Shown piece after piece: positions 17,987 through 41,582 of a DNA stretch of 52,936 bases. Numbering within the stretch: the stretch's first letter is position 1; every line of letters starts with the position of its first letter. The stretch is from positions 1-52,936 of the forward strand of contig CBFDBC010000001.1 in the NCBI GenBank assembly GCA_965602945.1, read 5' to 3'. The stretch is from an uncultured bacterium (GTDB taxonomy: Bacteria > Acidobacteriota > Aminicenantia > Aminicenantales > Aminicenantaceae). Under the pieces are notes generated by a model that did not search any database, was not told where the DNA came from, and saw nothing but the letters and a program-made list of their open reading frames with translations. A program made the translations under genes and the position numbers.

Positions 17987-19753
17987 ATGAAAGAGGGAGC
18001 GATGCCGAAACGAATTGTTTCCGAGCTCGCCTTCATCCTTTCACCCGCCATCATACCGCTGTTCCTGGTTTCGTTCCTGAATAATCTGCCGGTCCCCCGC
18101 TACACCGCCATTCTGGGCAGCCTGACGAGTCTGCTGCTGATATTCGCTGTCCTCCTGAAGGTGGATGACAAGACCCTGCTGGTGCTTCGGGGCGTTTTGA
18201 TAGGGCTGCTGTATCTCTTCTGGCTCAAGGGTTCTCTGTTCAGTTTCGAGGGTTTTTTCTGGGACAACCGCTACCTCGCGCTGGCCGTGGAGAGATTTTA
18301 TCATGCCTTCCTCCCGCATTCGCATGAGTACAGGAACATACATTTCTCCATGCCGCCCCTGTATTTCTTTTTGATCGGAAAGGCGGGAGCCCTGCTCAAG
18401 GCCAGCCTGCCGGCCGTGTTGAAATACAGCGGGTACCTGTTCGTGGTCTATCTCCCCTATCTCTGGGGATATGGCTTGAAGGGGATGCTCAAGCAGGACC
18501 GCTGGTACGGCGCCTTCGTGCTCTCGCTGTTGATCCCCTTCAAGACCTACGAATCCTGGTATGGAGCCCTGGGGACCATCGCGCAAAAGGGCTGGCATTT
18601 CATCGGGATATTCTTCCTCATCATCTGGTATCTCTGGGTAAAGCGCAGGAACCCCCATTTTCTCAAAGCCGGCCTGCTGGCGGGCCTGATATTCGCCTTC
18701 GATTACTATGCCTTCCTTCCGCTCTTCCTGGCGATCCTCATTGAGATCGGAACCGAATACAGGCAGAGCTCAAACGGCGGTGCGGCCTTCCGGCGCTTCC
18801 TGTATTACGCAAAGACCGCCGTGGTCGTTGTAGGTGTAAACCTGATCTGGATCCTCCCGGTTCTCTTCGACCTATTCCGCAATCCTCTGGGCACCTCTTA
18901 CAACGATTGGTTTCACATCTCGGGCGCCGACATCTCGAACGTGTTCGGCTTCTTCAAACCGTTCGATCTTTTTTCACTGGTGTTCATCGCAGGCTTTCTG
19001 AATCTGTTCGTCAACTGGTCGAAATCCCGCGAGATGCCCCATCTAAGGACCTGGCTGTTCTCCCTCCTGGTGTTCGGCCTGATCATCTACTTCCTGAGTT
19101 TCATACCCTTCACGTTTCTCTTCGCCGACTATTCCTTGATCCTGATCCATATCCTAGCCCTGTCGTGTGTATTCCTGCTCCTGCACCTCGGCCGGAAAAA
19201 GAGCCTGCCTGTTATACTGCTGCTCATCATCTGCAGCATCTCCGCCCTGAATCAGACCGAAGAAAACACCAACCTCTGGAATTCATCCAGGATCAGCTCC
19301 CATCGATACAGGATCAGCACTCCCTTGCGGGAGCAGCATGACTTCAACGAGGCGATCATCTTCCCCTACACCAACGAGCTGTTCTACGGCGAGAACACAT
19401 TTTCCTTCATCAGCTCCACCATCACCTATTCGGATCCGGCCGGCTCTTTTGAAACGCGCCTGGAGTATGTCAGGGAACTGGCAGCTTTGGCCCATAAAAA
19501 CGAGACCCGGGAATTCCACGCCCGCATCAAACACACTCCCTTCGGAGATATCGAGCACGTGATGCTGAAGAAGGGCGATCAGCCCGGCAGCCTGTATTTC
19601 GATCTCAAGATCTATATGAACGACTTGAAATATCCGGAAAAACAGGGAAACAAGCGCGACGTACTCTTCACTTTTGAAACGGAGGACTTCCCGCCGGAAT
19701 ACTTCACCCGGATATATGGCGATGATGAATTCGTCGTGTTCCGCCTGAAATAG
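17987..19753 (+). CDS. Large polytopic membrane protein with C-terminal soluble domain (possible GT-C/polymerase-like; function unknown)
   Basis: About 12 hydrophobic helices over 430 aa, then a hydrophilic domain of about 150 aa. No motif was recognised with confidence. The start is 17987 or 18002. Confidence 0.55.
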   Translation: MKEGAMPKRIVSELAFILSPAIIPLFLVSFLNNLPVPRYTAILGSLTSLLLIFAVLLKVDDKTLLVLRGVLIGLLYLFWLKGSLFSFEGFFWDNRYLALAVERFYHAFLPHSHEYRNIHFSMPPLYFFLIGKAGALLKASLPAVLKYSGYLFVVYLPYLWGYGLKGMLKQDRWYGAFVLSLLIPFKTYESWYGALGTIAQKGWHFIGIFFLIIWYLWVKRRNPHFLKAGLLAGLIFAFDYYAFLPLFLAILIEIGTEYRQSSNGGAAFRRFLYYAKTAVVVVGVNLIWILPVLFDLFRNPLGTSYNDWFHISGADISNVFGFFKPFDLFSLVFIAGFLNLFVNWSKSREMPHLRTWLFSLLVFGLIIYFLSFIPFTFLFADYSLILIHILALSCVFLLLHLGRKKSLPVILLLIICSISALNQTEENTNLWNSSRISSHRYRISTPLREQHDFNEAIIFPYTNELFYGENTFSFISSTITYSDPAGSFETRLEYVRELAALAHKNETREFHARIKHTPFGDIEHVMLKKGDQPGSLYFDLKIYMNDLKYPEKQGNKRDVLFTFETEDFPPEYFTRIYGDDEFVVFRLK

Positions 19754-19757: not shown

Positions 19758-21359
19758 TCATTTCCGTTTGTTCGGCTTGAGCTCCAGGAAGGTGAGATAG
19801 CCCTTCTCATCATTGACACGGTCTTCCAGCCAGACGTTAGAAAGCCTGTAGTTCTCCCGGATCAAGGCATCGGCTTCCGCGCCGTATCTGGGGGGTGTGA
19901 TGGGCTTCCTGTAGATCCGCCTGTCAAAGACAAAATATGTCGGCTCCTTCAAGAGCGCATGGAGCACATTGGTTTTCTCGTGGCCGGGGAAGCCCCTGCC
20001 TATGTCCTCGGCTTTCTGGTGGGCGATCTCAGGGTCAACCAGCCCGTCCTGATCATAGACGTTGAGCCGGGCATAGAACGATATCGCGCCGATCGCCCTG
20101 GTCGTGAGGCTCTCCTGCTCGCTTTTCTTGTACCTGTTAAAGTACTTCCCGATCAGGGATAACCGGGCGACATGCCACCGTTCTGTCTGTACCCCCCGAT
20201 ACATGCCGTGCATGAAAGAGGGTTCCGGGAAGACCTTCATCTCCAGGGGTGTGGAGTGAAACAGGGTCAAAGCCAGGAACAGCACCAGGAAGGCGCCCGC
20301 CGCAACCCGTTTTCCCGGGGCGGCCTCGAGACGGCCGAACAAGGAGTGAACAGCGGCCGCCATCAGGAAATAGATCAGGGGAAGAAGGGGCGCATAGAAC
20401 CGGAACATGGCCATGTAGTCGCCCCCCACATAGATGATGTACAGGGAGTAAAGGGAGCAGACCAGGAAGATCTCCCAGAGTCCAGGCCCGGCGCCGGGTA
20501 CCCGGGATCGGTTTTCCCCGGACCGCGGAGTGCCCTTCCTCTTTTCCCAGATCAGGAACAACACCAGGGGGATGAAAGGCAGAACATGGAGGGCAAGGAA
20601 CAGACCGGAATATTTGAGCCCCCTCAGGTACTGATACAGGGTTCCCCCCGTTTTGGCGTAGAACGTGTTGGGCAGCAGGAACCCGAAATACTGCACCCTC
20701 CAGGCAAAATACACCAGGAACGGCAGCCCATACAACAGTGCGGAGATAAAAAACGGCCGGAGGGGCAGCTTCCGGCGGCATACGGCCAGGAAGTGCAGGC
20801 CCGAAACGACAAGAAAGACACCGAATCCCTCGGGCCGCGTGAGCGAGGCCGCCAGGAAAGAGAGATAACCCAGGTACAAGAGCCGGAGCGACCGGGATCT
20901 CAGATAGGATACGAATCCCAGAACACCCACCAGCAGGAAAAATCCGAACAGGGTGGTCTCCATGCCGCTGGACGACCAGGTCGCGAACGGTCCTGAGAGG
21001 GCGAGGAAAAGACACGGGAGCACAGCACTCATGCGCGTCAGGCACAGGATCTTGCGAGCGAAGAAATAGACTCCCAAGATCGTGGCCACTCCCGACGCCA
21101 CGCCCAAGACCTGTGAGAAGGAGGGCAGGAAGAGCCCCAGTTTGACGGCCAGGGCCGCAAGGAGCACCCACAGGAAATTGGTGTATCCCTCGACGGGAGC
21201 CTCATCCGTATTCCACCGCATCCCGAAACCGTCCGCCAGGTTCCTGGCAAATCGGAAGCTTATGAAGGCATCCTCGGCCACGCAGTTCAGGTACGCGGCA
21301 TGGGCGATGAAGATCCCGCAGATGACCAGCAGCACGGCCAGGGGAAGCACATTTTTCAT
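19758..21359 (-). CDS. GT-C-like polytopic membrane glycosyltransferase candidate
   Basis: An acidic motif follows the first helix (AEDAFISFRFARNLADGFGMRWN...VEGYTNFLW), then more than 10 helices and a C-terminal soluble domain. ATGA overlap with the upstream radical SAM gene at 21356-21359. Confidence 0.6.
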   Translation of the reverse strand: MKNVLPLAVLLVICGIFIAHAAYLNCVAEDAFISFRFARNLADGFGMRWNTDEAPVEGYTNFLWVLLAALAVKLGLFLPSFSQVLGVASGVATILGVYFFARKILCLTRMSAVLPCLFLALSGPFATWSSSGMETTLFGFFLLVGVLGFVSYLRSRSLRLLYLGYLSFLAASLTRPEGFGVFLVVSGLHFLAVCRRKLPLRPFFISALLYGLPFLVYFAWRVQYFGFLLPNTFYAKTGGTLYQYLRGLKYSGLFLALHVLPFIPLVLFLIWEKRKGTPRSGENRSRVPGAGPGLWEIFLVCSLYSLYIIYVGGDYMAMFRFYAPLLPLIYFLMAAAVHSLFGRLEAAPGKRVAAGAFLVLFLALTLFHSTPLEMKVFPEPSFMHGMYRGVQTERWHVARLSLIGKYFNRYKKSEQESLTTRAIGAISFYARLNVYDQDGLVDPEIAHQKAEDIGRGFPGHEKTNVLHALLKEPTYFVFDRRIYRKPITPPRYGAEADALIRENYRLSNVWLEDRVNDEKGYLTFLELKPNKRK

Positions 21360-22828
21360 GGGCGTGATTTCTTGGGTTTGCGCGAGAAAAACGAAGGCAG
21401 CAGGTTCAGGCTCACCTTGAAGCGATGATAGACCTCATAGACCGTCTTGACCACGGGGTAGAACAGATCGTAGAGCGATTTGTCCCTGCCCACCCGGATG
21501 CGGCAGAGCAGCTTGATGATGAAGGACAGGCGGGGATACATGATCGCCCACGGGAATATGCTGCTGTAGTACGCAACCTTCTGTCTGGTGATGGAGGGCT
21601 GATCCAGTACGGTGACGTTGCTGAAAAATCCGTCGACCTTGCGGTCGCTGATCCAACCTTCTTTTTCGCACAGCTCCCCCAACCTGGTCCCGGGAAAGGG
21701 GTAGAAGGTGCTGATAAATACGATGTCCGGTTTGATGTCCCGATTCAACTGGATGGTCTTCTCCACGGTCTCGGTGGTTTCATAAGGCACACCGACCATG
21801 TTGAAGGTCCACAGCTTGATCCCGGTGTCTTTGATGATGCGGGCGGCGTCTATGATCTGCCGGTCGGAGATCCCCTTGTCCAGGATCGTGTTGCGGAGGT
21901 GCTCGTCCCCGTTCTCCACCCCCATCATCACCATGTTGCAGCCGGCATCCTTGAGGGTCTGCATGAACTCCTTTTCCACCAGGTCCGCCCGGACCGTTAT
22001 GTTGAAGGGAAAATCGTAGCGGGCCCGGTATTTCTCGAAGAATCCCGTGGTCCATTTCTTGTTGACACTGATCAGCTCATCATCGAAGACGATCGAACTG
22101 ATGTTGTCGTACCGGGTCACCAGGTCGTCGATCTCTGCCAGGATGCTCTCATGGCTGCGCACACGATAATAGCGTCCCTTGTGGCGGTATATGTCCTGAT
22201 AGGAGGAATTCACGCAGAATGTGCACTTGAAGGGACAGCCCCGGCTGCTTCGTATCTCGAGATAGCCGTGATAATTGAGCAGCTTCTGAAAATCGAGGAT
22301 CTCCCGGTCGCAGAACGGCAGGGAGTCGAGGTCCTCGCACAGGGGACGGATGGGATTCTTGATGATCCCTTCGTCGGATTTGAACCAGAAATTGTCGATC
22401 CTCAGGTCGTCGGGCCGGCGGCCGTCGTTTTTCTCCATGGCCTCGACCAGCTCCAACAGGGCAAATTCCCCTTCGCCCAGGCATATGCCGAATGCGCCCC
22501 TGATCTCGATGGATTCCTCCGGACGGACCGTGGGATGGACTCCGCCCAGGACCACCGGCAGCCCGAACTCATCGGAGATAAAGTCCGCGATATCCCGGGT
22601 GAGCTCGAGCTGTTGGGACGTCACGGAGATTCCCACCAGATCAGGCTGAAAATCGCGGATCTTGTTCCTGAGCTTCGGCTGGTCGACCCGGTACATCGTC
22701 ATCAGGTCGGTGGCGTGGCCGTGCTGTTTAAGGACCGCGGAGAGGATACCGATCCCGTAATGGTAGGTGAGCTTCTGGAGGATCAGAAGGGAAGGGTGGG
22801 GCATGGGGTGGATAAATAGAACTCTCAT
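21356..22828 (-). CDS. Cobalamin-binding-domain radical SAM protein (paralogue A)
   Basis: The track ORF extends to 22978. ATG 22828 forms an ATGA overlap with the upstream stop and gives MRVLFIHP. Motifs CLGEGEF, DLDSLPFCDREIL, cluster motif SRGCPFKCTFC and GVENGDE. Confidence 0.85.
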   Translation of the reverse strand: MRVLFIHPMPHPSLLILQKLTYHYGIGILSAVLKQHGHATDLMTMYRVDQPKLRNKIRDFQPDLVGISVTSQQLELTRDIADFISDEFGLPVVLGGVHPTVRPEESIEIRGAFGICLGEGEFALLELVEAMEKNDGRRPDDLRIDNFWFKSDEGIIKNPIRPLCEDLDSLPFCDREILDFQKLLNYHGYLEIRSSRGCPFKCTFCVNSSYQDIYRHKGRYYRVRSHESILAEIDDLVTRYDNISSIVFDDELISVNKKWTTGFFEKYRARYDFPFNITVRADLVEKEFMQTLKDAGCNMVMMGVENGDEHLRNTILDKGISDRQIIDAARIIKDTGIKLWTFNMVGVPYETTETVEKTIQLNRDIKPDIVFISTFYPFPGTRLGELCEKEGWISDRKVDGFFSNVTVLDQPSITRQKVAYYSSIFPWAIMYPRLSFIIKLLCRIRVGRDKSLYDLFYPVVKTVYEVYHRFKVSLNLLPSFFSRKPKKSRP

Positions 22829-24228
22829 CCTGATTTTCCTTTTGCGAGGCTGCCTTTCAGCACCGCCCAACCGTTCAGGACCAGTATTTTCCATTGGTTG
22901 AGCGATCGGGTGGAGGCCGCCATTTTCCAGATGTAGGAAGGCCGGAAGTAGAATTCCCTTACAGCCCGGTTCCGCCACTCCCAGGCCTGGCGGCGGGAAA
23001 ACTCGGGGGTTTCCAGGGTCGGGTAGGTATCGGAGGCATCGAACTCCAAAACATCCTCCTGGAGCCAGCCGTTTTTCAGAGCGGCCTCCCGAAGGGGAGT
23101 ACCCAGCGCGGGCACGGCAATATTGAAGGAGGCGATGTCACAATCCAGCTCCTTGGCGAAATCGATGGTCTTCCGCACCGTCTCCTCCGTTTCCCCGGGG
23201 AGCCCGATGATGAAATGCCCCAGGGTCCGGATCCCGAACTTCTGGCAGAGAGCGAATGCCCGGCGCAGCTGGTCCTTGGTCACACCCTTGGAGTACCTCT
23301 GCAGCAGCTCTTCATCCCCGTTCTCCACTCCCAGCAGGAGCGTGTGACAGCCCGCCTTTTTCATCCAGCTCAGGAGCTCTTCATCCAGGGTGTTGGCACG
23401 CGAGGAACACACCCAGCTGAGATCGAGCTTTTCCTCGACGATACGGCGGCACAGTTCGAGTGTATTCTCGCGCCGGGACTCGAAGGTGAAATCCGTGAAG
23501 AAGATCTCCTTTATCCCCAGGGACGCAATGTGCCGCAGCTCCTCCATGATGTTCTCGACGGCCCGGTACTTGAAGCCCAATACAGAGGCGGGGCAAAAGC
23601 TGCAGTTGAAGGGGCAGCCGAAATTGGTCATGGCCGTCGTGAAGGGAGACCTCCTGCCGTGCGCAAGGAGGTATTTTTTTAAGGGGAACTTCTCATGGTG
23701 GGGAACCGGGAACGCGAATTCAACCGGCCGGATGTCGTTTTTCCTGAGTAGGATATCACCCCCCCGGCGAAACGCCATGGCCGAGATCCCGTCGTACTCG
23801 CCACCCAGGAACGCCAGTATGTCCGGGCTGGTGTAGTCGAAGAGTATCGCGTCAAGGAACCCATATTCGCGCAGGAATCTTTCTGCGTCGTAGAGCAGGA
23901 CATCTCCGTTTCCTATGATCAGTCCGGGATGAGAGGTTTCTCTGATCCCGGCCATGAATGCGAAATCCTGTTTCCAGGAGGCCACTCCCGTGAGGAAAAC
24001 GATCGCGTGGTACTCCCCCTGCTCGATCCTCCGCCTGGTCTCCTCGGGTGTGAGCCCCTCCACTATGGCATCCAGGATCGTCACATCGTATCTTTGGCCG
24101 AGAATGCCGCTGAGCACCAGCAGGTCGATGGAAGGCCAGTAGTAATTCGCCTTGGAAACTCCGCTGCAGTACATATCCCGCTGATAGAGCTTGTCACCGG
24201 GGGGGTTAAGCAGCAGGATCTGTTCCAA
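22825..24228 (-). CDS. Cobalamin-binding-domain radical SAM protein (paralogue B)
   Basis: TTG start at 24228 with AAGGA upstream gives MEQILLLNPP. Motifs NFGCPFNCSFC and GVENGDEELL...GLPGETEETV. It overlaps the GT2 3' end by 23 nt. Confidence 0.85.
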   Translation of the reverse strand: MEQILLLNPPGDKLYQRDMYCSGVSKANYYWPSIDLLVLSGILGQRYDVTILDAIVEGLTPEETRRRIEQGEYHAIVFLTGVASWKQDFAFMAGIRETSHPGLIIGNGDVLLYDAERFLREYGFLDAILFDYTSPDILAFLGGEYDGISAMAFRRGGDILLRKNDIRPVEFAFPVPHHEKFPLKKYLLAHGRRSPFTTAMTNFGCPFNCSFCPASVLGFKYRAVENIMEELRHIASLGIKEIFFTDFTFESRRENTLELCRRIVEEKLDLSWVCSSRANTLDEELLSWMKKAGCHTLLLGVENGDEELLQRYSKGVTKDQLRRAFALCQKFGIRTLGHFIIGLPGETEETVRKTIDFAKELDCDIASFNIAVPALGTPLREAALKNGWLQEDVLEFDASDTYPTLETPEFSRRQAWEWRNRAVREFYFRPSYIWKMAASTRSLNQWKILVLNGWAVLKGSLAKGKSG

Positions 24229-24934
24229 CCTCTTTATCCTTCACTCTGTAAAAGAATCTGTATTTGATCAAAGCGGACAGGCACGAGAAGAAATCACTCC
24301 ACCGCACTTTTTTCCCGGTGTCTTTTCTCCGGGGTATGTATTCGACCGGCACCTCATGGATCTTGTAGCCGTGCCTGAGCAGTTTGGCTGTGATCTCGAT
24401 CGTGGAACCCCAGCGGTCGCTCTGGATGTCCAGGGCGCGGAGGACATCGGTTTTTGTCACTTGGAACATGGTCAGGACATCGGTCAGGTTGGACCTGAAA
24501 AGCCGGTCGGTGAGTTCGATCAAGATCAGGTTGGCGAAATAGGCGCCGATCCCCATCCCCTGGATGAATCCTTTTCCCAGGAACCGGGATCCGAAGACCA
24601 CCTCGGCCTCGTCTTCTATCAGGGGTTCCAGCAGTTTGGCATAGTTTGAGGGATCCAGTTCCAGATCCGCATCCTGGAATATGGTCACACGTCCCTGAGC
24701 ATGGTTCAAGGCGGTTTTTATCCCGGCGCCTCTTCCCAGGTTGGAGCCGTGGGTTATGACACGGATCTCCGGGTCCTGCTCCAGGGACTTCAAAAGCGTT
24801 GGGGTGTCATCCTCCGAACCATCATCCACGATGATGATCTCTTTGTCGATCTCTACGGCTTTGACCTTCTTGACCACCTTGATGATCGTGTTCTGTTCGT
24901 TGAACACGGGGATGATGACTGTGAGATCTTTCAT
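24206..24934 (-). CDS. GT2 glycosyltransferase, dolichyl/polyprenyl-phosphate mannose synthase (DPM1)-like
   Basis: LTVIIPVFNEQ, IIVDDGSEDDT and FQDADLELDP. ATG 24934 lies 1 nt after the upstream TAG. The track start TTG 24943 is the alternative. Confidence 0.85.
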   Translation of the reverse strand: MKDLTVIIPVFNEQNTIIKVVKKVKAVEIDKEIIIVDDGSEDDTPTLLKSLEQDPEIRVITHGSNLGRGAGIKTALNHAQGRVTIFQDADLELDPSNYAKLLEPLIEDEAEVVFGSRFLGKGFIQGMGIGAYFANLILIELTDRLFRSNLTDVLTMFQVTKTDVLRALDIQSDRWGSTIEITAKLLRHGYKIHEVPVEYIPRRKDTGKKVRWSDFFSCLSALIKYRFFYRVKDKEVGTDPAA

Positions 24935-24935
24935 T

Positions 24936-26354
24936 CTATCCAAAAAACAGGCGGAGGGCCGTCTTGGCCTTCCGGGTGAATTCCGTAAACGATTTGACCT
25001 GACGCAGCTGACTTATAACATACATGGGGCGGTAATAATAACTCAGGTGGGCCTTGCGCTGCCATTTTTCCAGCTCCCGGGGAGTAAAATTCTCGGTCCA
25101 CCACTGGGGCGTAAAATCTCCTGTCGGGTGGGCTGAAAACTCCCTCCAGAAATCTCCTTTCAGTATTCCATCTCTCATGCCTTTCTCGTAAAGCTCGGTG
25201 GCCGGGAAGGGGGTCGTGATCAGGAACTGGGCAAAATCAGGATTCAATTCCTTGGCGAAGGCGATGCTTTCCTTGATCTCCTTTTCCGTCTCACCCGGAG
25301 AACCCAACATGAAATAGGCAAAGGTGACGATGCCGGCCTTTTTCGCCATCCGGTAGGCCTGCCTCGCCTGATCCAGAGTGATACCTTTCATGAGGTTGTG
25401 CAAGATCCCGGGGTTCCCGCTTTCCACCCCGAAGCGGACCCGGTTGCACCCGGCCTGCGCCAGCCGGTCCAGGACCTCCTGATCGACCGTGTCCACCCGA
25501 GCCCGCAGGTCCATCGTGATGTTCAGGTTCTTCCGGATGATCAGATCCGCGATCGCCAGGACCCTTTTCCGGTCTATGGTGAAGGTGTCGTCGATGATGT
25601 CGAAGTCCGTGATCCCCAGTTTCACGTTCTGCTCGATCTCCCGTACCACGTTTTCCGGAGAACGCACGCGGCACATCCGGCCGTCCTTCTTGGTACAGAA
25701 CACGCAGTTGAAGGGGCAGCCCCGCGAAGTCAGGAGGCTGGTCATGTATTCCTTTCCCATGCCTAGGAGGTTGTAGTACTTCTGCCAGGGCAGGAGTTCC
25801 CTGTCGGGGAAAGGCAGGCTGTCCAGATCCTGGATAAACTCCCGGGGCGGATTGATGACGACATCCCCGTTACGGCGGAAACCAACCCCGTTGATATCTG
25901 AAAGGCTCCGGCCTCCGTCCACGGCGTCCAACAGCTCACTGAAAGTGAACTCGCCTTCGCCCATCACGATGGAATCGACCTCCGGCTGGCCGGCTATCTC
26001 TTGGGGATAGATGGTCGGATGAGTCCCCCCAAAGACGACATGACACCCGGGATTGGTTTTTTTAGCCAGGCGGGCGACCTTCAGGGCATCCAGCAAAAGA
26101 AACGTCATGCAGGAGATCCCGACCATGTCCGGCTTCTTCTGGGAGAGGACGCTTTCGAGCTTGTCATAGCCCATTTTTTCGACTTGAGTGTCGAGGACCT
26201 CGATGTTGAAGCGGTCGCCGTGAGCCTGCTGAGCGTAGGCCGCAATGTACAGCAGCCCCATGGGGGGAAAGAATCCCATCTCTTCCGTCAGCGAGTCGGG
26301 GGCAAAGGTGCGGACAAGATTCTCGGCGGGGGGGTTAATCAGGAGGATATTCAT
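24936..26354 (-). CDS. Cobalamin-binding-domain radical SAM protein (paralogue C)
   Basis: MNILLINPP, VMGEGEFTF, DLDSLPFPDRELL, SRGCPFNCVFC and GVESGNP...GSPGETEKEI. Confidence 0.88.
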   Translation of the reverse strand: MNILLINPPAENLVRTFAPDSLTEEMGFFPPMGLLYIAAYAQQAHGDRFNIEVLDTQVEKMGYDKLESVLSQKKPDMVGISCMTFLLLDALKVARLAKKTNPGCHVVFGGTHPTIYPQEIAGQPEVDSIVMGEGEFTFSELLDAVDGGRSLSDINGVGFRRNGDVVINPPREFIQDLDSLPFPDRELLPWQKYYNLLGMGKEYMTSLLTSRGCPFNCVFCTKKDGRMCRVRSPENVVREIEQNVKLGITDFDIIDDTFTIDRKRVLAIADLIIRKNLNITMDLRARVDTVDQEVLDRLAQAGCNRVRFGVESGNPGILHNLMKGITLDQARQAYRMAKKAGIVTFAYFMLGSPGETEKEIKESIAFAKELNPDFAQFLITTPFPATELYEKGMRDGILKGDFWREFSAHPTGDFTPQWWTENFTPRELEKWQRKAHLSYYYRPMYVISQLRQVKSFTEFTRKAKTALRLFFG

Positions 26355-26445
26355 GATATATCAATTCTAATTTATGCTCGCTCACTTTCGTTAAACTCGA
26401 TCCTAACCGAGGCTATAGATTAAAAAAAAGTCGAGATTTTGTCAA

Positions 26446-27516
26446 TCAGACGGAATCGTGGTCCAGCCACAGGAGATGCCAGTCCTTGAAAGGAGGGGGG
26501 GGGAGATCCGGCCGGGAAGAGTGGAATATCAGGGTGAAGACGGCCGGTGTCTTGGTAAAAAGACCTCTCCTCAGGGTGGAGAGCATGGGATCATGGGGAT
26601 TGAGCAGGCAGGCGCTCATCACGACGCCCGCCTCTAGAGACCTCTGGTGGAGCGCCTGCAGGAGGCTTTTGCCCACGTCCCGGCGATGGGGCGGGAACAG
26701 CATGTCCACGACAGCCAGCGTATCGAAGCCCTGCATGGGCATGCGGCGCGCCACCAGGTAGCCGCGCACCGAGGAGTCCTCCGAAACGGACCACTTGATG
26801 TATTCCCGACCCGGAGCACGACAGAAACGCCAGTTCAGGATTTCGGTGCTCCGTTTTGTGGTGACAGGATAATAGCTGGCGGCTTCGCCGAGGAAATCCT
26901 CGAACCTCTCATCAAAACGAGTAAACTCCTCTACATCCAGGCCGGCCTTAGAGCGAGGCCGGCTTCTGTGGAGGATCCGGCGGGCGACGGACAAAAACGG
27001 GGACAGCAGCGCAGCCAATACCCTGTTCCTGATAAAGGAACGGGCCAGGGCATGCAGATCATAGGGCCGTGCATACACCCGCAGCTCTCCCAGGCTCTGG
27101 AAACCAAAGGCGATATGCGCCTTCAGCACCTGCGGGAGATTGATCAGGCCGTAGACAAAATCGATCCCCTCCTGGGGATAATCCCTCAGTAAGGAAGTCT
27201 CCAGCCGTGGGAACAGGAGTTCCCTGCGATACTCCTCCTTCACCATGAGCTGGCAGACAAATCCCGCCTGACACTGCTTTTCATGCATTCGGAACCGGTA
27301 GGGAATGATAGCGCTGTGGCCCACGATCTCTCCGCCCGGGGCTTCACCCACCAGGACCGCGGCCTCGGATCCCGGAAATTCCTGGAACAGCCAGCGCCAG
27401 AACGCAATATAGGCCGCATCATCTGGAAACTCATCCGGCCAGATCCCGGCATGGAGCCGGGCGACTCCCAGCGCGTCCTCCTCACGGCCCCTGCGGATCT
27501 GAAACATGTGGGTCAC
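26446..27516 (-). CDS. Two-domain GNAT-fold acyltransferase candidate
   Basis: N-terminal GNAT-like IRRGREEDALGVARLH...GEIVGHSAIIP, a second alpha/beta half, and the C-terminal ending DWHLLWLDHD. GTG 27516 (GTGA overlap) or ATG 27507 is the start. Confidence 0.6.
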   Translation of the reverse strand: MTHMFQIRRGREEDALGVARLHAGIWPDEFPDDAAYIAFWRWLFQEFPGSEAAVLVGEAPGGEIVGHSAIIPYRFRMHEKQCQAGFVCQLMVKEEYRRELLFPRLETSLLRDYPQEGIDFVYGLINLPQVLKAHIAFGFQSLGELRVYARPYDLHALARSFIRNRVLAALLSPFLSVARRILHRSRPRSKAGLDVEEFTRFDERFEDFLGEAASYYPVTTKRSTEILNWRFCRAPGREYIKWSVSEDSSVRGYLVARRMPMQGFDTLAVVDMLFPPHRRDVGKSLLQALHQRSLEAGVVMSACLLNPHDPMLSTLRRGLFTKTPAVFTLIFHSSRPDLPPPPFKDWHLLWLDHDSV

Positions 27517-28361
27517 CCGGAACTCCCAATCTCCATCTGTTCTAAAACCCGCACATAATCCAGAAAGCGGATGGCGGTGAAGTTTTCGAGCAGGAGAGCG
27601 AGTTTGGGGAGCGTTGACGCCCGGTTGTGGAAGACCAGCCAGTTGAAAAGGATGTTTTCCTCTACCCTGAATCTTTCCTCTTCGGCGTCGATATCATATG
27701 GATGGAAATAGCCTACCAGGGGCCGGCGCTGTCTAGCAAACCGGCGTGAGAATCTTCTGAGCACGGGCTTCGGGAAGAAGCGCAGGTAGACCCCTCCTGC
27801 AAACGGGAGCTTGAATCCACCCAGAGATACCACGGAGATGGGCAGCTCCCAAAGTCCATTGTCCAGCCGTACCGGCGACAGGGAGAATCCCGCCCATCCG
27901 TAGAGCGGATTTTTCGCCGGCAGGACCGAACTGGAATATTGAAACCCCAACTCGACCAGGACATCCCAGGCCCAGCGGGTGGATTCGATCAAAGAAAAGT
28001 CAGGGGCCCGGAAGCCGGCGACGGAACCGACACCCTGCCTGTCGAGGGCTTCGATATTCCTCTCGAGGTTCTCCCGGAATCCCGCCGGCGTCAGCTTGTC
28101 CAGCGGCGTATGGTCATGCGTGTGGCAGCCGATCTCGTGTCCGGCCTCATGGGCCTCCCGGACAAGGCCGCCGATATGCTCGACCGTTTTCCCCTCCACA
28201 AAAAACGTACACTTTATTTTGTGGTCATCGAAGAAGCGAAGGAAGCGGTCGACCATGGCGGGCACCCGGAAATCCATGCCCTCGCCCGCCGGGGTCTGGC
28301 TGCGAATGTCCTCGAGATCGACGCTGAGCAGATAATAGGGAGGGGACAGGGAATCCGTCAT
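27513..28361 (-). CDS. Polysaccharide deacetylase (CE4) with DUF3473-type C-terminal region
   Basis: LSVDLEDI, FFVEGKTVE, the metal motif CHTHDHTPL, and YFHPYDID in the C-terminal half. Confidence 0.8.
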   Translation of the reverse strand: MTDSLSPPYYLLSVDLEDIRSQTPAGEGMDFRVPAMVDRFLRFFDDHKIKCTFFVEGKTVEHIGGLVREAHEAGHEIGCHTHDHTPLDKLTPAGFRENLERNIEALDRQGVGSVAGFRAPDFSLIESTRWAWDVLVELGFQYSSSVLPAKNPLYGWAGFSLSPVRLDNGLWELPISVVSLGGFKLPFAGGVYLRFFPKPVLRRFSRRFARQRRPLVGYFHPYDIDAEEERFRVEENILFNWLVFHNRASTLPKLALLLENFTAIRFLDYVRVLEQMEIGSSG

Positions 28362-29710
28362 TTTTTTTCGAGATTCCGCACCTTCTTGAATCTCTCGCTG
28401 TACAGCTTATCTCCGAATATTTCGATCTTCCGGGGGATCTTGAAATTTTCCAGTTTCTGCGCGCAATGCCGGCGCATGTGCAGAGAGAACTGCTTCTGAT
28501 CTTCGGGCTGGAACAGGCGTACGCGGGCACAGACGATGTTGCCGGTTATGTAGTTCTTCTCACCGTACACCGTCACCTCCGCCACATTCTCCATCTCCTG
28601 GATCACACTTTCCACTTCGGAGGGATAGACCTTCTCCCCGCCCACGTTGATGATCTCCGATTGCCTGCCCAGGATCTTTATGTAGTCGCCGTCCGTCAGG
28701 ACGGAGTCGCCGGTGTCGAACCACCCATCGTCCGTGAATGGGCTGTCCGCATTCAGATATCCCAGCATGGCGGATTCGGCCTTGATCTGGAGGATCCCAT
28801 CCTTCACCCGCGTCTGGAACTCATCGCCCCCCACCTTGACCCACAGGGACTCCGAGCTTTTGGATTTCGAGCGCAGAATACCCAGCTCGGACAGCCCATA
28901 GGTCTGGAGCAGCCGGATATGGGGGAAGAGGGCATGAAACCTCTTCAAGGTGCTTTCGGTCATGGGCTCCGTGCCGTAGGTCACGGTCTTGAGGGAGCTG
29001 AGGTCATGGCGGGCATAGGCCTCGCTCAGGAGAATGAGGTTGATGAAGGTGGGAGAAGTGGGGAGCAGTTCCACCTTGAATCGATCCACGGCCTCCAGGA
29101 CCCCGTCGGGGCTGCGATCCTGCACGGTGACGATACAGCCCGCGTTGGACAGGGTGTAGAACATGGTGTTCACCCCCCCGATGTGATCATAGAGCAGGAA
29201 CGTGATCGTCCGCAGCGAGTTCCGGGGCACCTCGAATTTCTTCAGCATCGGGACCAGGTCATGGACAGCGGCCTTGCTCTTCCCCGTTGATCCGGAGGAG
29301 AAAAGCACCAGGCCGGGGTGGTCCAACCTTCGCAGCTCCCGGTAATGGGGATGTTCGGCTTCAAAGGACAACGGGACGATCCGGACTTCATCGTTTTCGG
29401 CGACGGCGAAGCCGACCTCACTCTGGGCGGTTTCGATGAACTCTTCCCTTTTTGCGGCCGCCGCGCTCGTGAGGGGGACCAGGACGCAGCTGTGATCGAT
29501 CAGACACAGGAACAGGGCCACGGAATTCGGCGAAAAATCTGCCTCCAGAACGGCCACCGCACCCCGGGGGACATTTTGGTCACGGATGGTTTCGCGCCAT
29601 TCTCCCACCCTCCGGATCAGCCAATCGTATGAGTAGGCTTCGTCCCGCCAGACGATGGCGTCTTTATCCCGGTTTTCTGCAAACTTCTCCAGTAAAAAAT
29701 CGATCCACAT
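28358..29710 (-). CDS. Adenylate-forming acyl/aminoacyl ligase (AMP-dependent synthetase family)
   Basis: LFSSGSTGKSKA, TYGLSELG, GWFDTGD, GGEKVYPSEVE and a C-terminal KIPRK. ATG 29710 overlaps the SDR stop by 1 nt (TGATG). Confidence 0.85.
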   Translation of the reverse strand: MWIDFLLEKFAENRDKDAIVWRDEAYSYDWLIRRVGEWRETIRDQNVPRGAVAVLEADFSPNSVALFLCLIDHSCVLVPLTSAAAAKREEFIETAQSEVGFAVAENDEVRIVPLSFEAEHPHYRELRRLDHPGLVLFSSGSTGKSKAAVHDLVPMLKKFEVPRNSLRTITFLLYDHIGGVNTMFYTLSNAGCIVTVQDRSPDGVLEAVDRFKVELLPTSPTFINLILLSEAYARHDLSSLKTVTYGTEPMTESTLKRFHALFPHIRLLQTYGLSELGILRSKSKSSESLWVKVGGDEFQTRVKDGILQIKAESAMLGYLNADSPFTDDGWFDTGDSVLTDGDYIKILGRQSEIINVGGEKVYPSEVESVIQEMENVAEVTVYGEKNYITGNIVCARVRLFQPEDQKQFSLHMRRHCAQKLENFKIPRKIEIFGDKLYSERFKKVRNLEKK

Positions 29711-30411
29711 CAAATGCCCCCCAGATAGAGGATCTGTCCGGTGACAAAATCACTCTCGGGGCGGAGGAAAAAATCGATCACGTTGGAGATGTCAGAGAAC
29801 TCGCCATAACGTTGGATCGCCTGCCGTCGGATGAGGTTGTCCAGCTTTTCCGCGGGCACAGAACGTACCAGATCCGTCTTCACGGGCGTGGGGCCGATGG
29901 CGTTGACGGTGATGTTGAATGCGGCCAGCTCCCGTGCGAGTATCCGGGTCAAGGTCGCCACAGCCGATTTCGAAGCGGCATAGGCGGCCTCCCCCTCCAG
30001 ATCCAAAGCGGCCGCCACGGTCGTGAAATTGACGATACGGCCGGATTTTTTCCGGCGCATCAGCTTGGCGGCTTCCCGGCAGAACAGGAAGGTGCCCAGG
30101 GTGTTGGTCTCGAAAATCCTCTTGACGGTCGCGAGTGGTGTCAGGAGCACATGGTTCATGGACGCGATCCCGGCATTGTTGATCAGGACATCGAGCCGGC
30201 CGTAGGATCTGCCGATCTCGGCAAACATGGCCTTCACTTCCGGTTCATCGATGACGTCCAGGCAGAAATGCCTGTAGTTTTGATGCTGGAACTCGCTCTG
30301 ATGCCGGCTGCAGCCCACGACACGGCTGCCCTGGCCCGTGTAATATTCAACCAGGAACCTCCCGATCCCCCGGCTGGCCCCGGTGATCAGGATGACCCGG
30401 TCATTATCCAT
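29710..30411 (-). CDS. Classical short-chain dehydrogenase/reductase (3-oxoacyl-ACP reductase-like)
   Basis: ATG 30411 gives MDNDRVILITGASRGIGR, with NNAG and YAASKSA. The track ORF's N-terminal extension to 30501 overlaps the ACP gene. Confidence 0.85.
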   Translation of the reverse strand: MDNDRVILITGASRGIGRFLVEYYTGQGSRVVGCSRHQSEFQHQNYRHFCLDVIDEPEVKAMFAEIGRSYGRLDVLINNAGIASMNHVLLTPLATVKRIFETNTLGTFLFCREAAKLMRRKKSGRIVNFTTVAAALDLEGEAAYAASKSAVATLTRILARELAAFNITVNAIGPTPVKTDLVRSVPAEKLDNLIRRQAIQRYGEFSDISNVIDFFLRPESDFVTGQILYLGGI

Positions 30412-30712: not shown

Positions 30713-30916
30713 CTGGTTGTCTCTATTGGAGTTGGATTAGAATATCTGTTCATTCACCATGGGTGATTCTACTAATGAAATACGTTAAACAAAATCCTCT
30801 GCCGTGTCAAGGCGGCCGGCCCGCTCACCTCCGGACGGCTTCCTCTCCAGCTTACCCGACTGATCTAACCTAATCAGGATTTGGAAATGCTAACGGCCAA
30901 CTTCCCGGCGGTCACA

Positions 30917-30946: not shown

Positions 30947-30954
30947 GGAGGGCG

Positions 30955-41575: not shown

Positions 41576-41582
41576 GGTCAAA

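What the first reader, a model, noticed from the sequence alone, without database searches (positions are those of the whole stretch)
19758..26354. Three tandem cobalamin-type radical SAM enzymes interleaved with a GT2 and translationally coupled to a GT-C-like membrane protein
Seen: ORFs 24936..26354, 22825..24228 and 21356..22828 (all minus strand) each combine an N-terminal Rossmann-like region with a CxxxCxxC cluster motif. The N-terminal regions open with ILLINPP, ILLLNPP or LFIHP and carry a GEGE/GNGD turn. The cluster motifs are SRGCPFNCVFC, NFGCPFNCSFC and SRGCPFKCTFC, and all three share a GVE(N/S)G...PGET/PYET core. By eye they are only moderately similar to each other, so they look like old paralogues rather than recent duplicates. 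A DPM1-like GT2 (24206..24934) lies between the first and second. The chain ends in a polytopic membrane protein (19758..21359) with an acidic AEDAF loop motif. The junctions are a 1-nt gap, a 23-nt overlap, ATGA at 22825-22828 and ATGA at 21356-21359, so this is one tightly coupled unit. Established: class B radical SAM enzymes (for example GenK, GenD1, Fom3, HpnP, HpnR, BchE, OxsB) methylate or rearrange unactivated carbon centres. Inference: successive radical C-methylation or rearrangement of a polyprenyl-phosphate-linked sugar or glycolipid, followed by periplasmic transfer. I know of no characterised pathway with this gene order.
Basis: partly seen in the sequence, partly recalled or inferred. 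Interest (0 to 1): 0.8.

Follow-up and report, generated by a model that had tools for sequence, protein, structure and literature searches.

The report
Radical SAM enzymes tailoring a lipid-linked sugar
An uncultured bacterium, probably Aminicenantes, has one operon joining three old radical SAM paralogues, a lipid-phosphate sugar synthase and a membrane glycosyltransferase; this most likely builds an unusual, radically modified amino sugar for the cell surface, by a pathway nobody has characterised.

Summary

**What the genes are**
- rSAM1 and rSAM3 are class-B radical SAM proteins with clear B12-binding domains.
- rSAM2 has no detectable B12-binding signal. Its closest solved structure is AprD4, a cobalamin-free diol dehydratase that acts on an amino sugar. 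Its best family match is HpnJ.
- None of the three reaches the cut-off of any characterised family.
- The GT2 groups with polyprenyl-phosphate sugar synthases (DPMS, ArnC, GtrB, PpgS, AglJ).
- The membrane protein is a true GT-C glycosyltransferase, closest to AftB.

**Conservation**
- The core rSAM1-GT2-rSAM2 (usually with rSAM3) recurs in Aminicenantes-type genomes.
- The ATGA coupling of rSAM3 to this particular GT-C is seen only in close relatives.
- Links between HpnJ-like rSAMs, DPM1-like GT2s, deacetylases (NodB or YdjC type) and GT-C genes recur independently in several phyla.

**The unit is larger than reported.** A carrier protein, SDR, AMP-ligase, deacetylase and GNAT lie upstream.

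**Best reading.** An Arn/PpgS-like lipid-linked amino-sugar pathway with radical tailoring of the sugar, then transfer outside the cytoplasm. The chemistry of each rSAM is unknown. I rate it a new variant of a known kind, with moderately high interest.

The parts
30404..30712 (-). Small carrier protein (102 aa) with an ACP/DltC-like 'GRLDSLGLVDL' phosphopantetheine-site motif. First gene of the minus-strand string.
   Evidence: Translation. Called as a gene in L001, L002, L008 and L092. No NCBIfam hit; Pfam was not run on it. The assignment rests on the motif alone, so it is an inference.
29710..30411 (-). Short-chain dehydrogenase/reductase (233 aa), FabG-like.
   Evidence: Pfam adh_short 1.6e-46. 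NCBIfam FabG-type hits lie below cut-off. Gene start taken from the gene calls in L001.
28358..29713 (-). AMP-dependent acyl/aryl ligase (about 450 aa).
   Evidence: Pfam AMP-binding 2.4e-28 plus AMP-binding_C. No equivalog reached.
27513..28361 (-). NodB-type polysaccharide deacetylase with DUF3473 (282 aa).
   Evidence: Pfam PF01522 5.8e-18 and PF11959 1.4e-27. TIGR03006 XrtA-type deacetylase scores 178 bits against a cut-off of 276. A homologous deacetylase accompanies the rSAM block in L008, L009, L010, L073 and L092.
26446..27516 (-). GNAT-type acyltransferase (356 aa, Acetyltransf_9).
   Evidence: Pfam 8.9e-11. Conserved after the ligase in L005, L008 and L092.
26355..26445 (.). A 91-nt AT-rich intergenic gap, the only sizeable gap in the ten-gene string. 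Possibly an internal start of the rSAM sub-operon.
   Evidence: Sequence. A gap of 136-146 nt lies at the same place in L008 and L092. No consensus promoter above shuffles and no riboswitch or Rfam hit.
24936..26354 (-). rSAM1: class-B radical SAM protein (472 aa) with a B12-binding domain. Function unknown.
   Evidence: Pfam B12-binding 1.2e-23 and Radical_SAM 7.5e-29. Best NCBIfam hits are HpnJ 212 bits (cut-off 578) and BchE 211 bits (cut-off 481). Orthologues lie next to the GT2 in L008, L009, L012, L013 and L073.
24206..24934 (-). DPM1/PpgS/AglJ-like GT2 (242 aa, no predicted TM helix). A putative polyprenyl-phosphate (N-acetyl)hexosamine or hexose synthase.
   Evidence: Pfam PF00535 2.3e-31. 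Best NCBIfam hits are AglJ, PpgS, dolichyl-P hexose transferase and ArnC, all below cut-off. Closest solved structures are P. furiosus DPMS 5MLZ, ArnC and GtrB. No TM segment predicted.
22825..24228 (-). rSAM2: HpnJ/AprD4-like radical SAM protein (467 aa) with a Rossmann-like N-domain but no detectable B12-binding signature.
   Evidence: Pfam Radical_SAM only. NCBIfam: HpnJ 206 bits (cut-off 578), AprD4 135 bits (cut-off 500). The AF2 model has pLDDT 88, and its best Foldseek match is AprD4 6FD2 (TM 0.75, full length). The top 120 clusters are at least 43% identical, from several phyla.
21356..22828 (-). rSAM3: class-B radical SAM protein (490 aa) with a B12-binding domain. Its stop overlaps the GT-C start (ATGA).
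   Evidence: Pfam B12-binding 3e-18 and Radical_SAM 3.3e-22. HpnJ 139 bits, BchE 122 bits. Junctions. Homologues at 41-45% identity lie beside GT-C genes in L094 and L095; a rSAM3-like gene in L011 (31% identical) overlaps the start of a PMT_2 gene.
19758..21359 (-). AftB-like GT-C membrane glycosyltransferase (533 aa, about 11 TM helices plus a C-terminal periplasmic domain). E28-D29 of 'AEDAF' is the likely catalytic motif.
   Evidence: A profile of 27 homologues hits AftB 9DLF at E = 1.7e-13, with AEDAF aligned to ADDGL. The AF2 model has pLDDT 88; Foldseek gives AftB TM 0.65, then ALG9, ArnT, OST and PglB. 11 hydrophobic segments.
17987..19753 (+). Convergent 588-aa polytopic membrane protein of unknown function and a conserved partner of the GT-C. 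Possibly a second GT-C-like protein.
   Evidence: 9 hydrophobic segments. Only a weak AftA_C hit, E = 0.08. No PDB sequence hit. Adjacent to the GT-C homologue in L005 and L092, two genes away in L093.
30955..33093 (+). Divergently transcribed 712-aa PMT_2-type GT-C. The GT-C most often retained next to the rSAM block in relatives.
   Evidence: Pfam PMT_2 2.8e-7. Homologues score 569-760 bits beside the block in L008, L009 and L012. 11 hydrophobic segments.

Best explanation
The locus encodes a cell-envelope glycoconjugate pathway in which an amino sugar is built and remodelled while attached to a polyprenyl phosphate, and is then transferred outside the cytoplasm by a GT-C enzyme.

Proposed order. 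Every step is an inference from homology and gene context; none has been shown.
1. The soluble DPM1/PpgS-like GT2 loads a HexNAc (or hexose) from a nucleotide sugar onto polyprenyl phosphate.
2. The NodB/DUF3473 deacetylase frees the amine, as ArnD does on Und-P-Ara4FN and HpnK does on GlcNAc-BHT.
3. rSAM2, the HpnJ/AprD4-like enzyme, abstracts a ring hydrogen. It then either contracts the ring to an aminocyclitol (HpnJ/Cds/PtmC-type) or dehydrates a vicinal diol (AprD4-type deoxygenation).
4. rSAM1 and rSAM3, which carry real B12-binding domains, add C-methyl groups or carry out further radical rearrangements.
5. The carrier protein, AMP-ligase, SDR and GNAT re-acylate the amine with a dedicated acyl group.
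6. An unidentified flippase moves the lipid-linked product across the membrane.
7. The AftB-like GT-C, translationally coupled to rSAM3, transfers the product to a periplasmic or surface acceptor. The neighbouring PMT_2 and 588-aa membrane proteins may take part.
For: **Protein identities**
- rSAM domains and B12 domains.
- The GT2 groups with polyprenyl-P sugar synthases in NCBIfam and PDB.
- GT-C fold, with the invariant E-D aligned to the AftB ADD motif.
- NodB deacetylase.

**Tight coupling**
- 1-nt gap, 23-nt overlap and two ATGA overlaps.

**Conservation of the core**
- rSAM1-GT2-rSAM2(-rSAM3) is present in L008, L009, L012, L013, L073 and L092.

**Independent recurrence of the same logic**
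- L010, Chloroflexota: MTase-rSAM2-like-MTase-deacetylase-GT2-DUF2304-MTase-PMT_2-PMT_2.
- L011, Scalinduaceae: a rSAM2-like gene directly followed by a PMT gene (shared boundary base), a rSAM3-like gene overlapping the start of a PMT_2 gene, and a GT2-rSAM pair.
- L015: rSAM2-like-YdjC (the HpnK deacetylase family)-GT2-AsnB. This is a non-orthologous deacetylase in the same position.
- L051: GT2-rSAM-carbamoyltransferase-PMT_2.
- L094 and L095: rSAM3-like genes flanked by PMT_2 or YfhO GT-C genes.
- In 33 of 79 genome loci, a DPM1/ArnC-like GT2 lies adjacent on the same strand to the HpnJ-like rSAM.

**Closest characterised relatives of rSAM2 act on glucosamine rings of glycosides**
- HpnJ is the best NCBIfam hit.
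- AprD4 in complex with paromamine is the best solved structure.

**Literature precedents**
- HpnI/HpnK/HpnJ and Cds (PMC13459092).
- Pactamycin PtmJ/PtmC plus rSAM methylases (PMC9092360).
- GT2/flippase/GT-C three-component systems (PMC11127046).
Against: - No biochemical data exist for any member of these clades.
- No flippase candidate was found between 13 and 47 kb.
- The GT2 has no TM anchor, and no equivalog model reaches its cut-off, so its lipid acceptor is not proven.
- The coupling to this GT-C is not conserved beyond close relatives. GT-C homologues at 46-61% identity have no rSAMs nearby.
- The rSAM reactions cannot be told apart from sequence.
- Class-B rSAMs also modify lipid tails, peptides and tetrapyrroles.
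- The NJ tree has no support values.
Confidence: 0.5

Rival explanations
1. A membrane-lipid head-group pathway of the HpnIJK or calditol type. The GT2 glycosylates a membrane lipid (a hopanoid polyol, ether lipid or similar) rather than a polyprenyl phosphate. The deacetylase and rSAM2 convert the glucosamine head group into an aminocyclitol ether. The other rSAMs methylate the lipid or the head group. The GT-C genes are merely neighbours.
For: - HpnJ is the best NCBIfam match for all three rSAMs.
- The GT + deacetylase + rSAM triad recurs, including with a YdjC (HpnK-family) deacetylase in L015.
- The rSAM2 clade falls in the same broad group as genuine HpnJ in the NJ tree.
- Genuine HpnJ also has only a sub-threshold B12-domain signal, like rSAM2 orthologues.
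- An HpnA-like epimerase lies nearby, scoring 165 bits against a cut-off of 368.
Against: - Scores are far below the HpnJ cut-off: 139-212 bits against 578, while a genuine HpnJ control scores 840.
- The GT2 matches polyprenyl-P sugar synthases and gives no HpnI hit.
- No squalene-hopene cyclase or other hpn gene was seen in the ORFs scanned.
- GT-C genes sit directly next to, and are sometimes start/stop-coupled with, rSAM genes in at least five unrelated contexts.
Confidence: 0.2
2. A secondary-metabolite cluster (aminocyclitol or aminoglycoside-like, pactamycin-type). A sugar is attached to a carrier-protein-bound or small-molecule aglycone and remodelled by several rSAMs into a diffusible natural product.
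For: - A carrier protein, AMP-ligase, SDR, GNAT, deacetylase, GT and several class-B rSAMs occur together. The same classes of parts appear in pactamycin biosynthesis: PtmI (ACP), PtmJ (GT), PtmC (rSAM) and PtmH (a rSAM C-methyltransferase) (PMC9092360).
- AprD4, an aminoglycoside enzyme, is the closest solved structure for all three rSAMs.
Against: - The GT2 is of the lipid-phosphate synthase type.
- Three GT-C-type or polytopic membrane proteins, an ArnC-like GT2, a GT4 and PKD surface proteins surround the operon.
- The same rSAM clades sit in envelope-glycan contexts in other phyla, with ABC/Wzt transporters, YfhO or PMT_2.
- No PKS, NRPS, resistance or export genes typical of antibiotic clusters were seen.
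Confidence: 0.1
3. The rSAMs act on something other than the sugar. Candidates are the hydrocarbon chain of a membrane or carrier lipid (GrsA/B-, Gmm-, HpnP/R-like methylation or cyclisation), or a protein or peptide substrate. They are merely co-located with glycan genes.
For: - Class-B rSAMs include lipid-tail and peptide modifiers.
- Sub-threshold hits to ApyD, the 'ladderane' lipid rSAM, the MCR glutamine methylase and PhpK.
- The solved glutamine methylase 9CCB is the second-best structural match.
Against: - No precursor-peptide or lipid-synthesis genes lie in the operon.
- Adjacency to GT2, deacetylase and GT-C genes recurs across phyla.
- Start/stop overlaps link the rSAMs with the GT2 and the GT-C.
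Confidence: 0.12

Closest known systems
HpnI / HpnK / HpnJ (bacteriohopanetetrol cyclitol ether synthesis)
   Same: The logic is the same: a GT attaches GlcNAc to a lipid, a deacetylase frees the amine, and a class-B-like rSAM (HpnJ) is thought to contract the ring. HpnJ is the best NCBIfam match of all three paralogues. rSAM2 is 31% identical to a genuine HpnJ. A YdjC (HpnK-family) deacetylase replaces the NodB one in L015.
   Different: Scores of 139-212 bits fall far below the 578-bit cut-off, while the genuine HpnJ control scores 840. The GT2 is DPM1/PpgS-like, not HpnI. No hopanoid genes were seen. There are three paralogous rSAMs instead of one, and the operon is coupled to a GT-C.
AprD4 / AprD3 (C3'-deoxygenation of paromamine in apramycin biosynthesis; PDB 6FD2)
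   Same: AprD4 is the closest solved structure by sequence for all three rSAMs and by fold for rSAM2 (TM 0.75 over the full length). It acts on a glucosamine ring of a glycoside. It has a Rossmann-like N-domain that does not bind cobalamin (PMC12931638). rSAM2 likewise shows no B12-domain signal.
   Different: Identity is only about 24%. The NF033070 score is 135 bits against a cut-off of 500. The context is envelope glycan genes, not an aminoglycoside cluster. No dedicated AprD3-type partner was identified; the only SDR sits in the carrier-protein module.
Arn pathway (ArnC GT2, ArnD NodB-type deformylase, ArnE/F flippase, ArnT GT-C) and mycobacterial PpgS/Rv3632/Rv3779 GalN pathway (own knowledge, plus NCBIfam names)
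   Same: A polyprenyl-phosphate amino-sugar donor is made by a GT2, de-N-acylated on the lipid by a NodB-family enzyme, and transferred by a GT-C. A GT2+DUF2304 pair occurs in relatives L010 and L093.
   Different: Arn and Ppg contain no rSAM enzymes. No flippase was found here. All equivalog cut-offs are missed.
Three-component periplasmic glycosylation systems (GtrA/GtrB/Gtr*; GT136 pentofuranose systems), PMC11127046
   Same: A lipid-phosphate sugar synthase plus a GT-C that uses the lipid-linked monosaccharide outside the cytoplasm.
   Different: Those systems tailor the lipid-linked sugar, if at all, with epimerases. Here up to three rSAMs, a deacetylase and an acylation module are inserted between the synthase and the GT-C. 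The flippase component was not identified.
AftB (mycobacterial terminal beta-(1->2)-arabinofuranosyltransferase, PDB 9DLF)
   Same: Best sequence-profile hit (E = 1.7e-13) and best fold hit (TM 0.65) of the 533-aa membrane protein. The acidic motif aligns: AEDAF with ADDGL.
   Different: The NCBIfam AftB model scores 17 bits against a cut-off of 1050, with 18% identity. The protein belongs to a separate large family of more than 2,000 clusters, spread over many phyla and with no Pfam model. Donor and acceptor are unknown.
Pactamycin aminocyclopentitol pathway (PtmJ GT, PtmG, PtmC rSAM, PtmH/L/M rSAM methylases, PtmI ACP), PMC9092360
   Same: It combines a GT, a ring-contracting rSAM candidate, additional class-B rSAM C-methylases and a carrier protein acting on a GlcNAc-derived unit.
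   Different: That pathway is a soluble natural-product pathway in Streptomyces with a different GT type. I made no sequence comparison with the Ptm proteins.

Membership tests
Class B (B12-binding domain) radical SAM enzymes | Radical SAM core with a CxxxCxxC cluster motif (PF04055) | tested here: met
   All three: E = 7.5e-29, 2.4e-25 and 3.3e-22. The motifs are read.
Class B (B12-binding domain) radical SAM enzymes | N-terminal B12-binding domain (PF02310) above the gathering score | tested here: met
   rSAM1 scores 83.7 bits and rSAM3 66.2 bits against a cut-off of 32.1. This row applies to rSAM1 and rSAM3 only.
Class B (B12-binding domain) radical SAM enzymes | N-terminal B12-binding domain (PF02310), tested on rSAM2 | tested here: not met
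   No hit even at E <= 10. Orthologues and a genuine HpnJ reach only 25-31 bits, below threshold. The AF2 model does show a Rossmann-like N-domain, and the best structural match is the cobalamin-free AprD4.
Class B (B12-binding domain) radical SAM enzymes | Actual cobalamin binding and use | not testable with these tools
   This needs purified protein (UV-vis, cobalt analysis) or cofactor-aware modelling.
HpnJ (TIGR03471) | Score at or above the curated equivalog cut-off of 577.6 bits | tested here: not met
   212, 206 and 139 bits. The positive control, Paraburkholderia HpnJ in L065, scores 840 bits.
HpnJ (TIGR03471) | Hopanoid gene context (shc, hpnH, hpnI, hpnK) | tested here: not met
   None was seen among the window ORFs scanned. 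Only 53 kb was examined.
AprD4 family diol dehydratase (NF033070) | Score at or above the cut-off of 500 bits | tested here: not met
   116, 135 and 76 bits. Structural similarity is nevertheless the highest of any solved structure.
BchE (TIGR02026) | Score at or above the cut-off of 481 bits | tested here: not met
   211, 91 and 122 bits. The 'BchE' names given by automatic sources are therefore not supported.
Polyprenyl-phosphate glycosyltransferases of GT2 (DPM1/GtrB/ArnC/PpgS/AglJ type) | GT-A GT2 catalytic domain most similar to known polyprenyl-P sugar synthases | tested here: met
   PF00535 2.3e-31. The top NCBIfam hits are AglJ and PpgS, with dolichyl-P hexose transferase and ArnC further down the list. 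The top PDB hits are DPMS 5MLZ, ArnC and GtrB.
Polyprenyl-phosphate glycosyltransferases of GT2 (DPM1/GtrB/ArnC/PpgS/AglJ type) | Membership of a specific curated equivalog, which would fix the donor and acceptor | tested here: not met
   The best score is 89.7 bits against a cut-off of 325. No TM anchor is predicted.
GT-C fold glycosyltransferases | Polytopic membrane domain (8-13 TM helices) with an acidic motif in the first extracytoplasmic loop | tested here: met
   11 hydrophobic segments. E28 and D29 are invariant in 27 homologues and align with the AftB ADD motif.
GT-C fold glycosyltransferases | Fold similarity to solved GT-C enzymes | tested here: met
   AF2 pLDDT 88 and pTM 0.89. Foldseek gives AftB TM 0.65, then ALG9, ArnT, OST/PglB and AftA, all with probability 1.0.
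AftB (NF041481) | Score at or above the cut-off of 1050 bits | tested here: not met
   17.4 bits. The protein is related to AftB but is not an orthologue.
Three-component periplasmic glycosylation system | A dedicated flippase (GtrA/SMR/MATE type) encoded with the synthase and the GT-C | tested here: not met
   No ORF of 60-230 aa with three or more hydrophobic segments lies between 13 and 47 kb. No transporter domain other than an SDF symporter was seen in the Pfam scans. A flippase could be encoded elsewhere.

The most novel reading that the evidence does not exclude
There may be a widespread, unrecognised class of extracytoplasmic glycosylation systems in which the polyprenyl-phosphate-linked sugar donor is chemically rebuilt by HpnJ/AprD4-like and B12-type radical SAM enzymes before a GT-C transfers it. 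The rebuilding could be ring contraction to an aminocyclitol, deoxygenation or C-methylation. Such systems would put carbocyclic or branched, acid-stable 'pseudo-sugars' on bacterial surface glycans or proteins. The PKD-domain proteins that recur nearby are candidate protein acceptors. The window would be the richest example, with three to four paralogous rSAMs.
Probability: 0.35. Interest if true: 0.8.

Novelty: new variant of a known kind. Interest (0 to 1): 0.62.

Why it matters
- Radical SAM tailoring of sugars is known for soluble natural products (GenK, AprD4, DesII) and is inferred for two lipid head groups (HpnJ, Cds). As far as I could find, it has not been described for polyprenyl-phosphate-linked donors feeding GT-C transferases.
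- If confirmed, this would add a new chemical layer to bacterial surface glycan diversity.
- It would give tractable new homologues for the HpnJ/Cds/PtmC ring contraction, which has never been reconstituted.
- It would assign a first function to several large clades of class-B rSAMs that databases currently mislabel as 'BchE' or 'YgiQ'.
- It would do the same for a family of more than 2,000 AftB-like GT-C clusters that has no Pfam model.

Tried and rejected
- **Equivalog assignment.** None of the operon proteins reaches any NCBIfam curated cut-off. The source names 'BchE' and 'YgiQ' are rejected.
- **Cobalamin riboswitch or other RNA element.** There is no Rfam hit above the gathering score in the whole window. 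In the gap upstream of rSAM1 the only hit is a chance one (E = 0.53).
- **Promoter and terminator scan of 19-31.3 kb.** Counts do not exceed shuffles. The TTGACA seen by eye in the gap has no acceptable -10 partner.
- **Hopanoid context.** None was found.
- **Flippase search by hydropathy.** None was found.
- **PDB sequence searches.** The 588-aa partner and the 712-aa PMT_2 protein gave no hits.
- **Contexts of GT-C homologues at 46-61% identity.** They contain no rSAMs. The GT-C family as a whole is therefore not tied to rSAMs.
- **Literature searches** for this gene combination found nothing specific.
- **Organism naming.** Cluster members gave no taxon. The Aminicenantes assignment rests on the closest named relatives, at 66-69% identity.
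- **A wrong ORF, corrected.** I first took the antisense ORF 30874-31179 for the small upstream gene. It gave no Pfam hit, and its translation does not look like a real protein. I replaced it with 30404-30712.

Full report
**1. The observation**

The five minus-strand ORFs exist at the stated coordinates.

I read the junctions directly from the sequence:
- rSAM1 ends in TAG, one base follows, then the GT2 ATG.
- The GT2 stop lies 23 nt inside rSAM2. rSAM2 starts at a TTG with AAGGA 8 nt upstream. This start is supported by an N-terminus, LLLNPPG, that is invariant in 19 orthologues.
- rSAM2/rSAM3 and rSAM3/membrane protein both share ATGA.

Pfam finds Radical_SAM in all three (E = 1e-22 to 1e-29). 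It finds B12-binding in rSAM1 (84 bits) and rSAM3 (66 bits), and Glycos_transf_2 in the GT2. The paralogues are 27-30% identical.

The one correction concerns rSAM2. It has no B12-binding signal even at E <= 10.

**2. What the proteins are**

*The three rSAMs.*
- None reaches a curated family cut-off. HpnJ is the best model for each, at 212, 206 and 139 bits against a cut-off of 578. BchE, PhpK, ApyD, AprD4 and others score lower.
- A genuine HpnJ from Paraburkholderia (L065) scores 840 bits, so the test discriminates.
- By sequence, the closest solved structure for all three is AprD4. Next come the MCR glutamine methylase 9CCB, TokK, CysS, TsrM and OxsB.
- An AlphaFold2 model of rSAM2 (pLDDT 88) has a Rossmann-like N-domain followed by the partial TIM barrel. 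It matches AprD4 over its full length (TM 0.75), and then the cobalamin-dependent enzymes.
- AprD4 does not bind cobalamin, although it sits in the B12-rSAM similarity network (PMC12931638).
- Genuine HpnJ and the rSAM2 orthologues give only sub-threshold PF02310 scores of 25-31 bits.
- So two of the three are B12-type by sequence. The third is HpnJ/AprD4-like, and its cofactor is uncertain.

*The GT2.* Its best family and structure matches are all polyprenyl-phosphate sugar synthases: AglJ, PpgS, dolichyl-P hexose transferase, ArnC, Pyrococcus DPMS and GtrB. It has no predicted TM helix.

*The membrane protein.*
- It has no Pfam domain, but it belongs to a large family. 2,146 clusters scored E <= 0.001 among the 8,000 candidates examined.
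- A profile of 27 members hits mycobacterial AftB at E = 1.7e-13, with AEDAF aligned to ADDGL. E28 and D29 are invariant.
- Its AF2 model (pLDDT 88) matches AftB (TM 0.65), then ALG9, ArnT, OST, PglB and AftA.
- It is a GT-C, but not an AftB orthologue: 17 bits against a cut-off of 1050.

**3. The unit is larger than reported**

Upstream on the same strand, with overlapping or abutting genes, lie five more genes:
- a 102-aa carrier protein with a DSL phosphopantetheine-site motif;
- a FabG-like SDR;
- an AMP-dependent ligase;
- a NodB-type deacetylase with DUF3473;
- a GNAT.

A 91-nt AT-rich gap separates the GNAT from rSAM1. A similar gap is conserved in relatives. It holds no recognisable promoter or riboswitch.

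The surrounding genes are these:
- Convergent with the GT-C, 4 nt away, is a conserved 588-aa polytopic membrane protein. Behind it on the plus strand lie a SAM methyltransferase, an HpnA-like epimerase, a GT4 and an ArnC-like GT2.
- Divergent from the carrier-protein gene is a 712-aa PMT_2 GT-C.
- Further on, the window carries a fourth class-B rSAM with an epimerase/dehydratase and a DegT aminotransferase, a SPASM rSAM, and PKD-domain proteins.
- No hopanoid genes were seen.

**4. Conservation**

The window matches metagenome contigs exactly (L001-L004). Its closest named relatives are Candidatus Aminicenantes MAGs.

*The core block.*
- rSAM1-GT2-rSAM2 is conserved in L008, L009, L012, L013, L073 and L092.
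- rSAM3 is also present in L008, L012 and L092.
- The ATGA-coupled AftB-like GT-C follows rSAM3 only in the window's own lineage and in a relative whose GT-C is 85% identical (L092).

*The GT-C on its own.*
- A 61% GT-C homologue (L005) keeps the 588-aa partner and a nearby carrier protein-SDR-ligase-GNAT set, but has no rSAMs, GT2 or deacetylase.
- A 53% homologue (L093) sits with GT2+DUF2304, PMT_2 and the DUF3473 deacetylase, but no rSAM.
- More distant homologues are solitary.
- The system is therefore modular, and the rSAM block is an accessory tailoring module.

*Recurrence of the association in other lineages.*
- Chloroflexota, L010: MTase-rSAM2-like-MTase-deacetylase-GT2-DUF2304-MTase-PMT_2-PMT_2.
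- Scalinduaceae, L011: a rSAM2-like gene directly followed by a PMT gene (shared boundary base), a rSAM3-like gene overlapping the start of a PMT_2 gene, and a GT2-rSAM pair.
- Aminicenantes JdFR-78, L015: rSAM2-like-YdjC-GT2-AsnB.
- Acidobacteriota, L051: GT2-rSAM-carbamoyltransferase-PMT_2.
- L094 and L095: rSAM3-like genes beside PMT_2 and YfhO GT-C genes.
- Of 79 genome loci retrieved with the rSAM2 profile, 33 have a DPM1/ArnC-like GT2 adjacent on the same strand. The group that lacks it is mostly the genuine HpnJ loci.
- In a neighbour-joining tree without support values, the four window paralogues fall in four separate clades, each with orthologues elsewhere. The rSAM2 clade is distinct from genuine HpnJ.

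**5. Mechanism**

*What is shown.*
- The protein families and the tight coupling.
- The conserved core.
- The recurrent partnership of these rSAM clades with lipid-phosphate-type GT2s, with deacetylases of two unrelated folds, and with GT-C enzymes.

*What is inferred.*
- The GT2 makes a polyprenyl-P-HexNAc.
- The deacetylase frees the amine while the sugar is still on the lipid. ArnD does this in the Arn pathway (my own knowledge) and HpnK does it for hopanoids (PMC13459092).
- rSAM2 performs radical chemistry on the hexosamine ring. This could be ring contraction, as proposed for HpnJ, Cds and PtmC (PMC13459092, PMC9092360), or diol dehydration as in AprD4.
- rSAM1 and rSAM3 methylate or further rearrange the sugar.
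- The carrier protein, ligase, SDR and GNAT re-acylate the amine.
- A GT-C then transfers the product outside the cytoplasm, as in three-component glycosylation systems (PMC11127046).

Replacement of the NodB deacetylase by a YdjC one in the same position (L015) is the strongest single hint that the rSAM2 family needs a free amino sugar.

*Unknowns.* These are the reaction of each rSAM, the lipid carrier, the flippase (none was found) and the acceptor.

**6. Rivals**
- A lipid head-group pathway of the HpnIJK or calditol type is the main rival (0.2). It fits the triad. It does not fit the GT2 type or the repeated GT-C coupling.
- A soluble aminocyclitol natural product of the pactamycin type (0.1) fits the carrier protein and the multiple rSAMs. 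It does not fit the membrane glycosyltransferases or the envelope context.
- Action on lipid tails or peptides (0.12) has no positive contextual support.

**7. Novelty and score**

No curated model, source annotation or paper that I could search describes this arrangement. It combines two known themes: lipid-linked donor/GT-C glycosylation and rSAM sugar tailoring. That combination has not been characterised, so I rate it a new variant of a known kind.

I set interest at 0.62. The association is real, conserved and chemically intriguing. However, the function is inferred, the organisms are uncultured, and rSAM involvement in sugar modification is not surprising in itself.

Noticed in passing
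window 40169-43726 (+): A fourth class-B radical SAM gene (468 aa, B12-binding plus Radical_SAM) is followed by an NAD-dependent epimerase/dehydratase and a DegT-type aminotransferase. The same rSAM-epimerase-DegT-PKD string occurs in L009. This suggests a second, nucleotide-sugar-level radical tailoring step in the same glycan island.
   Followed up: partly
window 43810-46323 (+) and 46372-48714 (-); L008, L009, L093: Large PKD-domain proteins recur next to the rSAM/GT-C genes in the window and in related contigs. They could be protein acceptors of the PMT_2-type GT-Cs, or the adjacency could simply be synteny inherited among relatives.
   Followed up: no
window 17987-19753 (+) against 19758-21359 (-): The 588-aa polytopic membrane protein and the GT-C converge, with only 4 nt between their stop codons. 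The pair is adjacent in L005 and L092 and two genes apart in L093. The 588-aa protein has no Pfam or PDB sequence match apart from a weak AftA_C hit (E = 0.08).
   Followed up: partly
window 34401-35378 (+): A SPASM-domain radical SAM protein (325 aa) lies directly after a sodium:dicarboxylate symporter. I looked for no partner peptide.
   Followed up: no
L026-L061 (for example L027 4065-15309): In many Chloroflexota, and in some Acidobacteriota, cyanobacterial and myxobacterial genomes, a ~400-aa ArnC/AglJ-like GT2 is immediately followed by a ~550-aa HpnJ-like rSAM. In Longilinea (L027) the pair is preceded by heptose-type sugar-nucleotide genes (SIS isomerase, GHMP kinase, hexapeptide protein, epimerase) and followed by an AMP-ligase and AsnB.
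   Followed up: partly
L051 9248-14828: A compact four-gene set in an Acidobacteriota MAG: GT2 (228 aa), HpnJ-like rSAM (297 bits to HpnJ), carbamoyltransferase and a PMT_2 GT-C. This is a minimal version of the logic proposed for the window.
   Followed up: partly
L015 9998-15125: In Aminicenantes JdFR-78 the order is rSAM2-like, YdjC (the HpnK deacetylase family), ArnC-like GT2, asparagine-synthase homologue. This is an HpnJ/K-like pair with a lipid-phosphate-type GT2. AsnB homologues also flank rSAM2-like genes in L011 and L027.
   Followed up: partly
window 19758-21359 and its homologues P0001-P0120: The AftB-like GT-C belongs to a family of more than 2,000 90%-identity clusters, spread across Planctomycetota, Ignavibacteria, Bacteroidota and others. 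The family has no Pfam model. JGI labels members 'arabinofuranosyltransferase' and NCBI occasionally labels them GT39.
   Followed up: partly
window 13447-14742 (+): The mechanical ORF for the ArnC-like GT2 starts at a GTG that adds about 105 residues of non-protein-like sequence. The real start is probably the Met in 'MEEQATRDLSIVVPVYNE'. The protein has two C-terminal TM helices, like GtrB and ArnC.
   Followed up: no
window 21425-22819 (+), 22894-23682 (+), 20172-20996 (+): Long antisense ORFs lie opposite the rSAM and GT-C genes. These are the usual shadow ORFs of roughly 58% G+C DNA. Gene callers did not call them in L001-L003.
   Followed up: no
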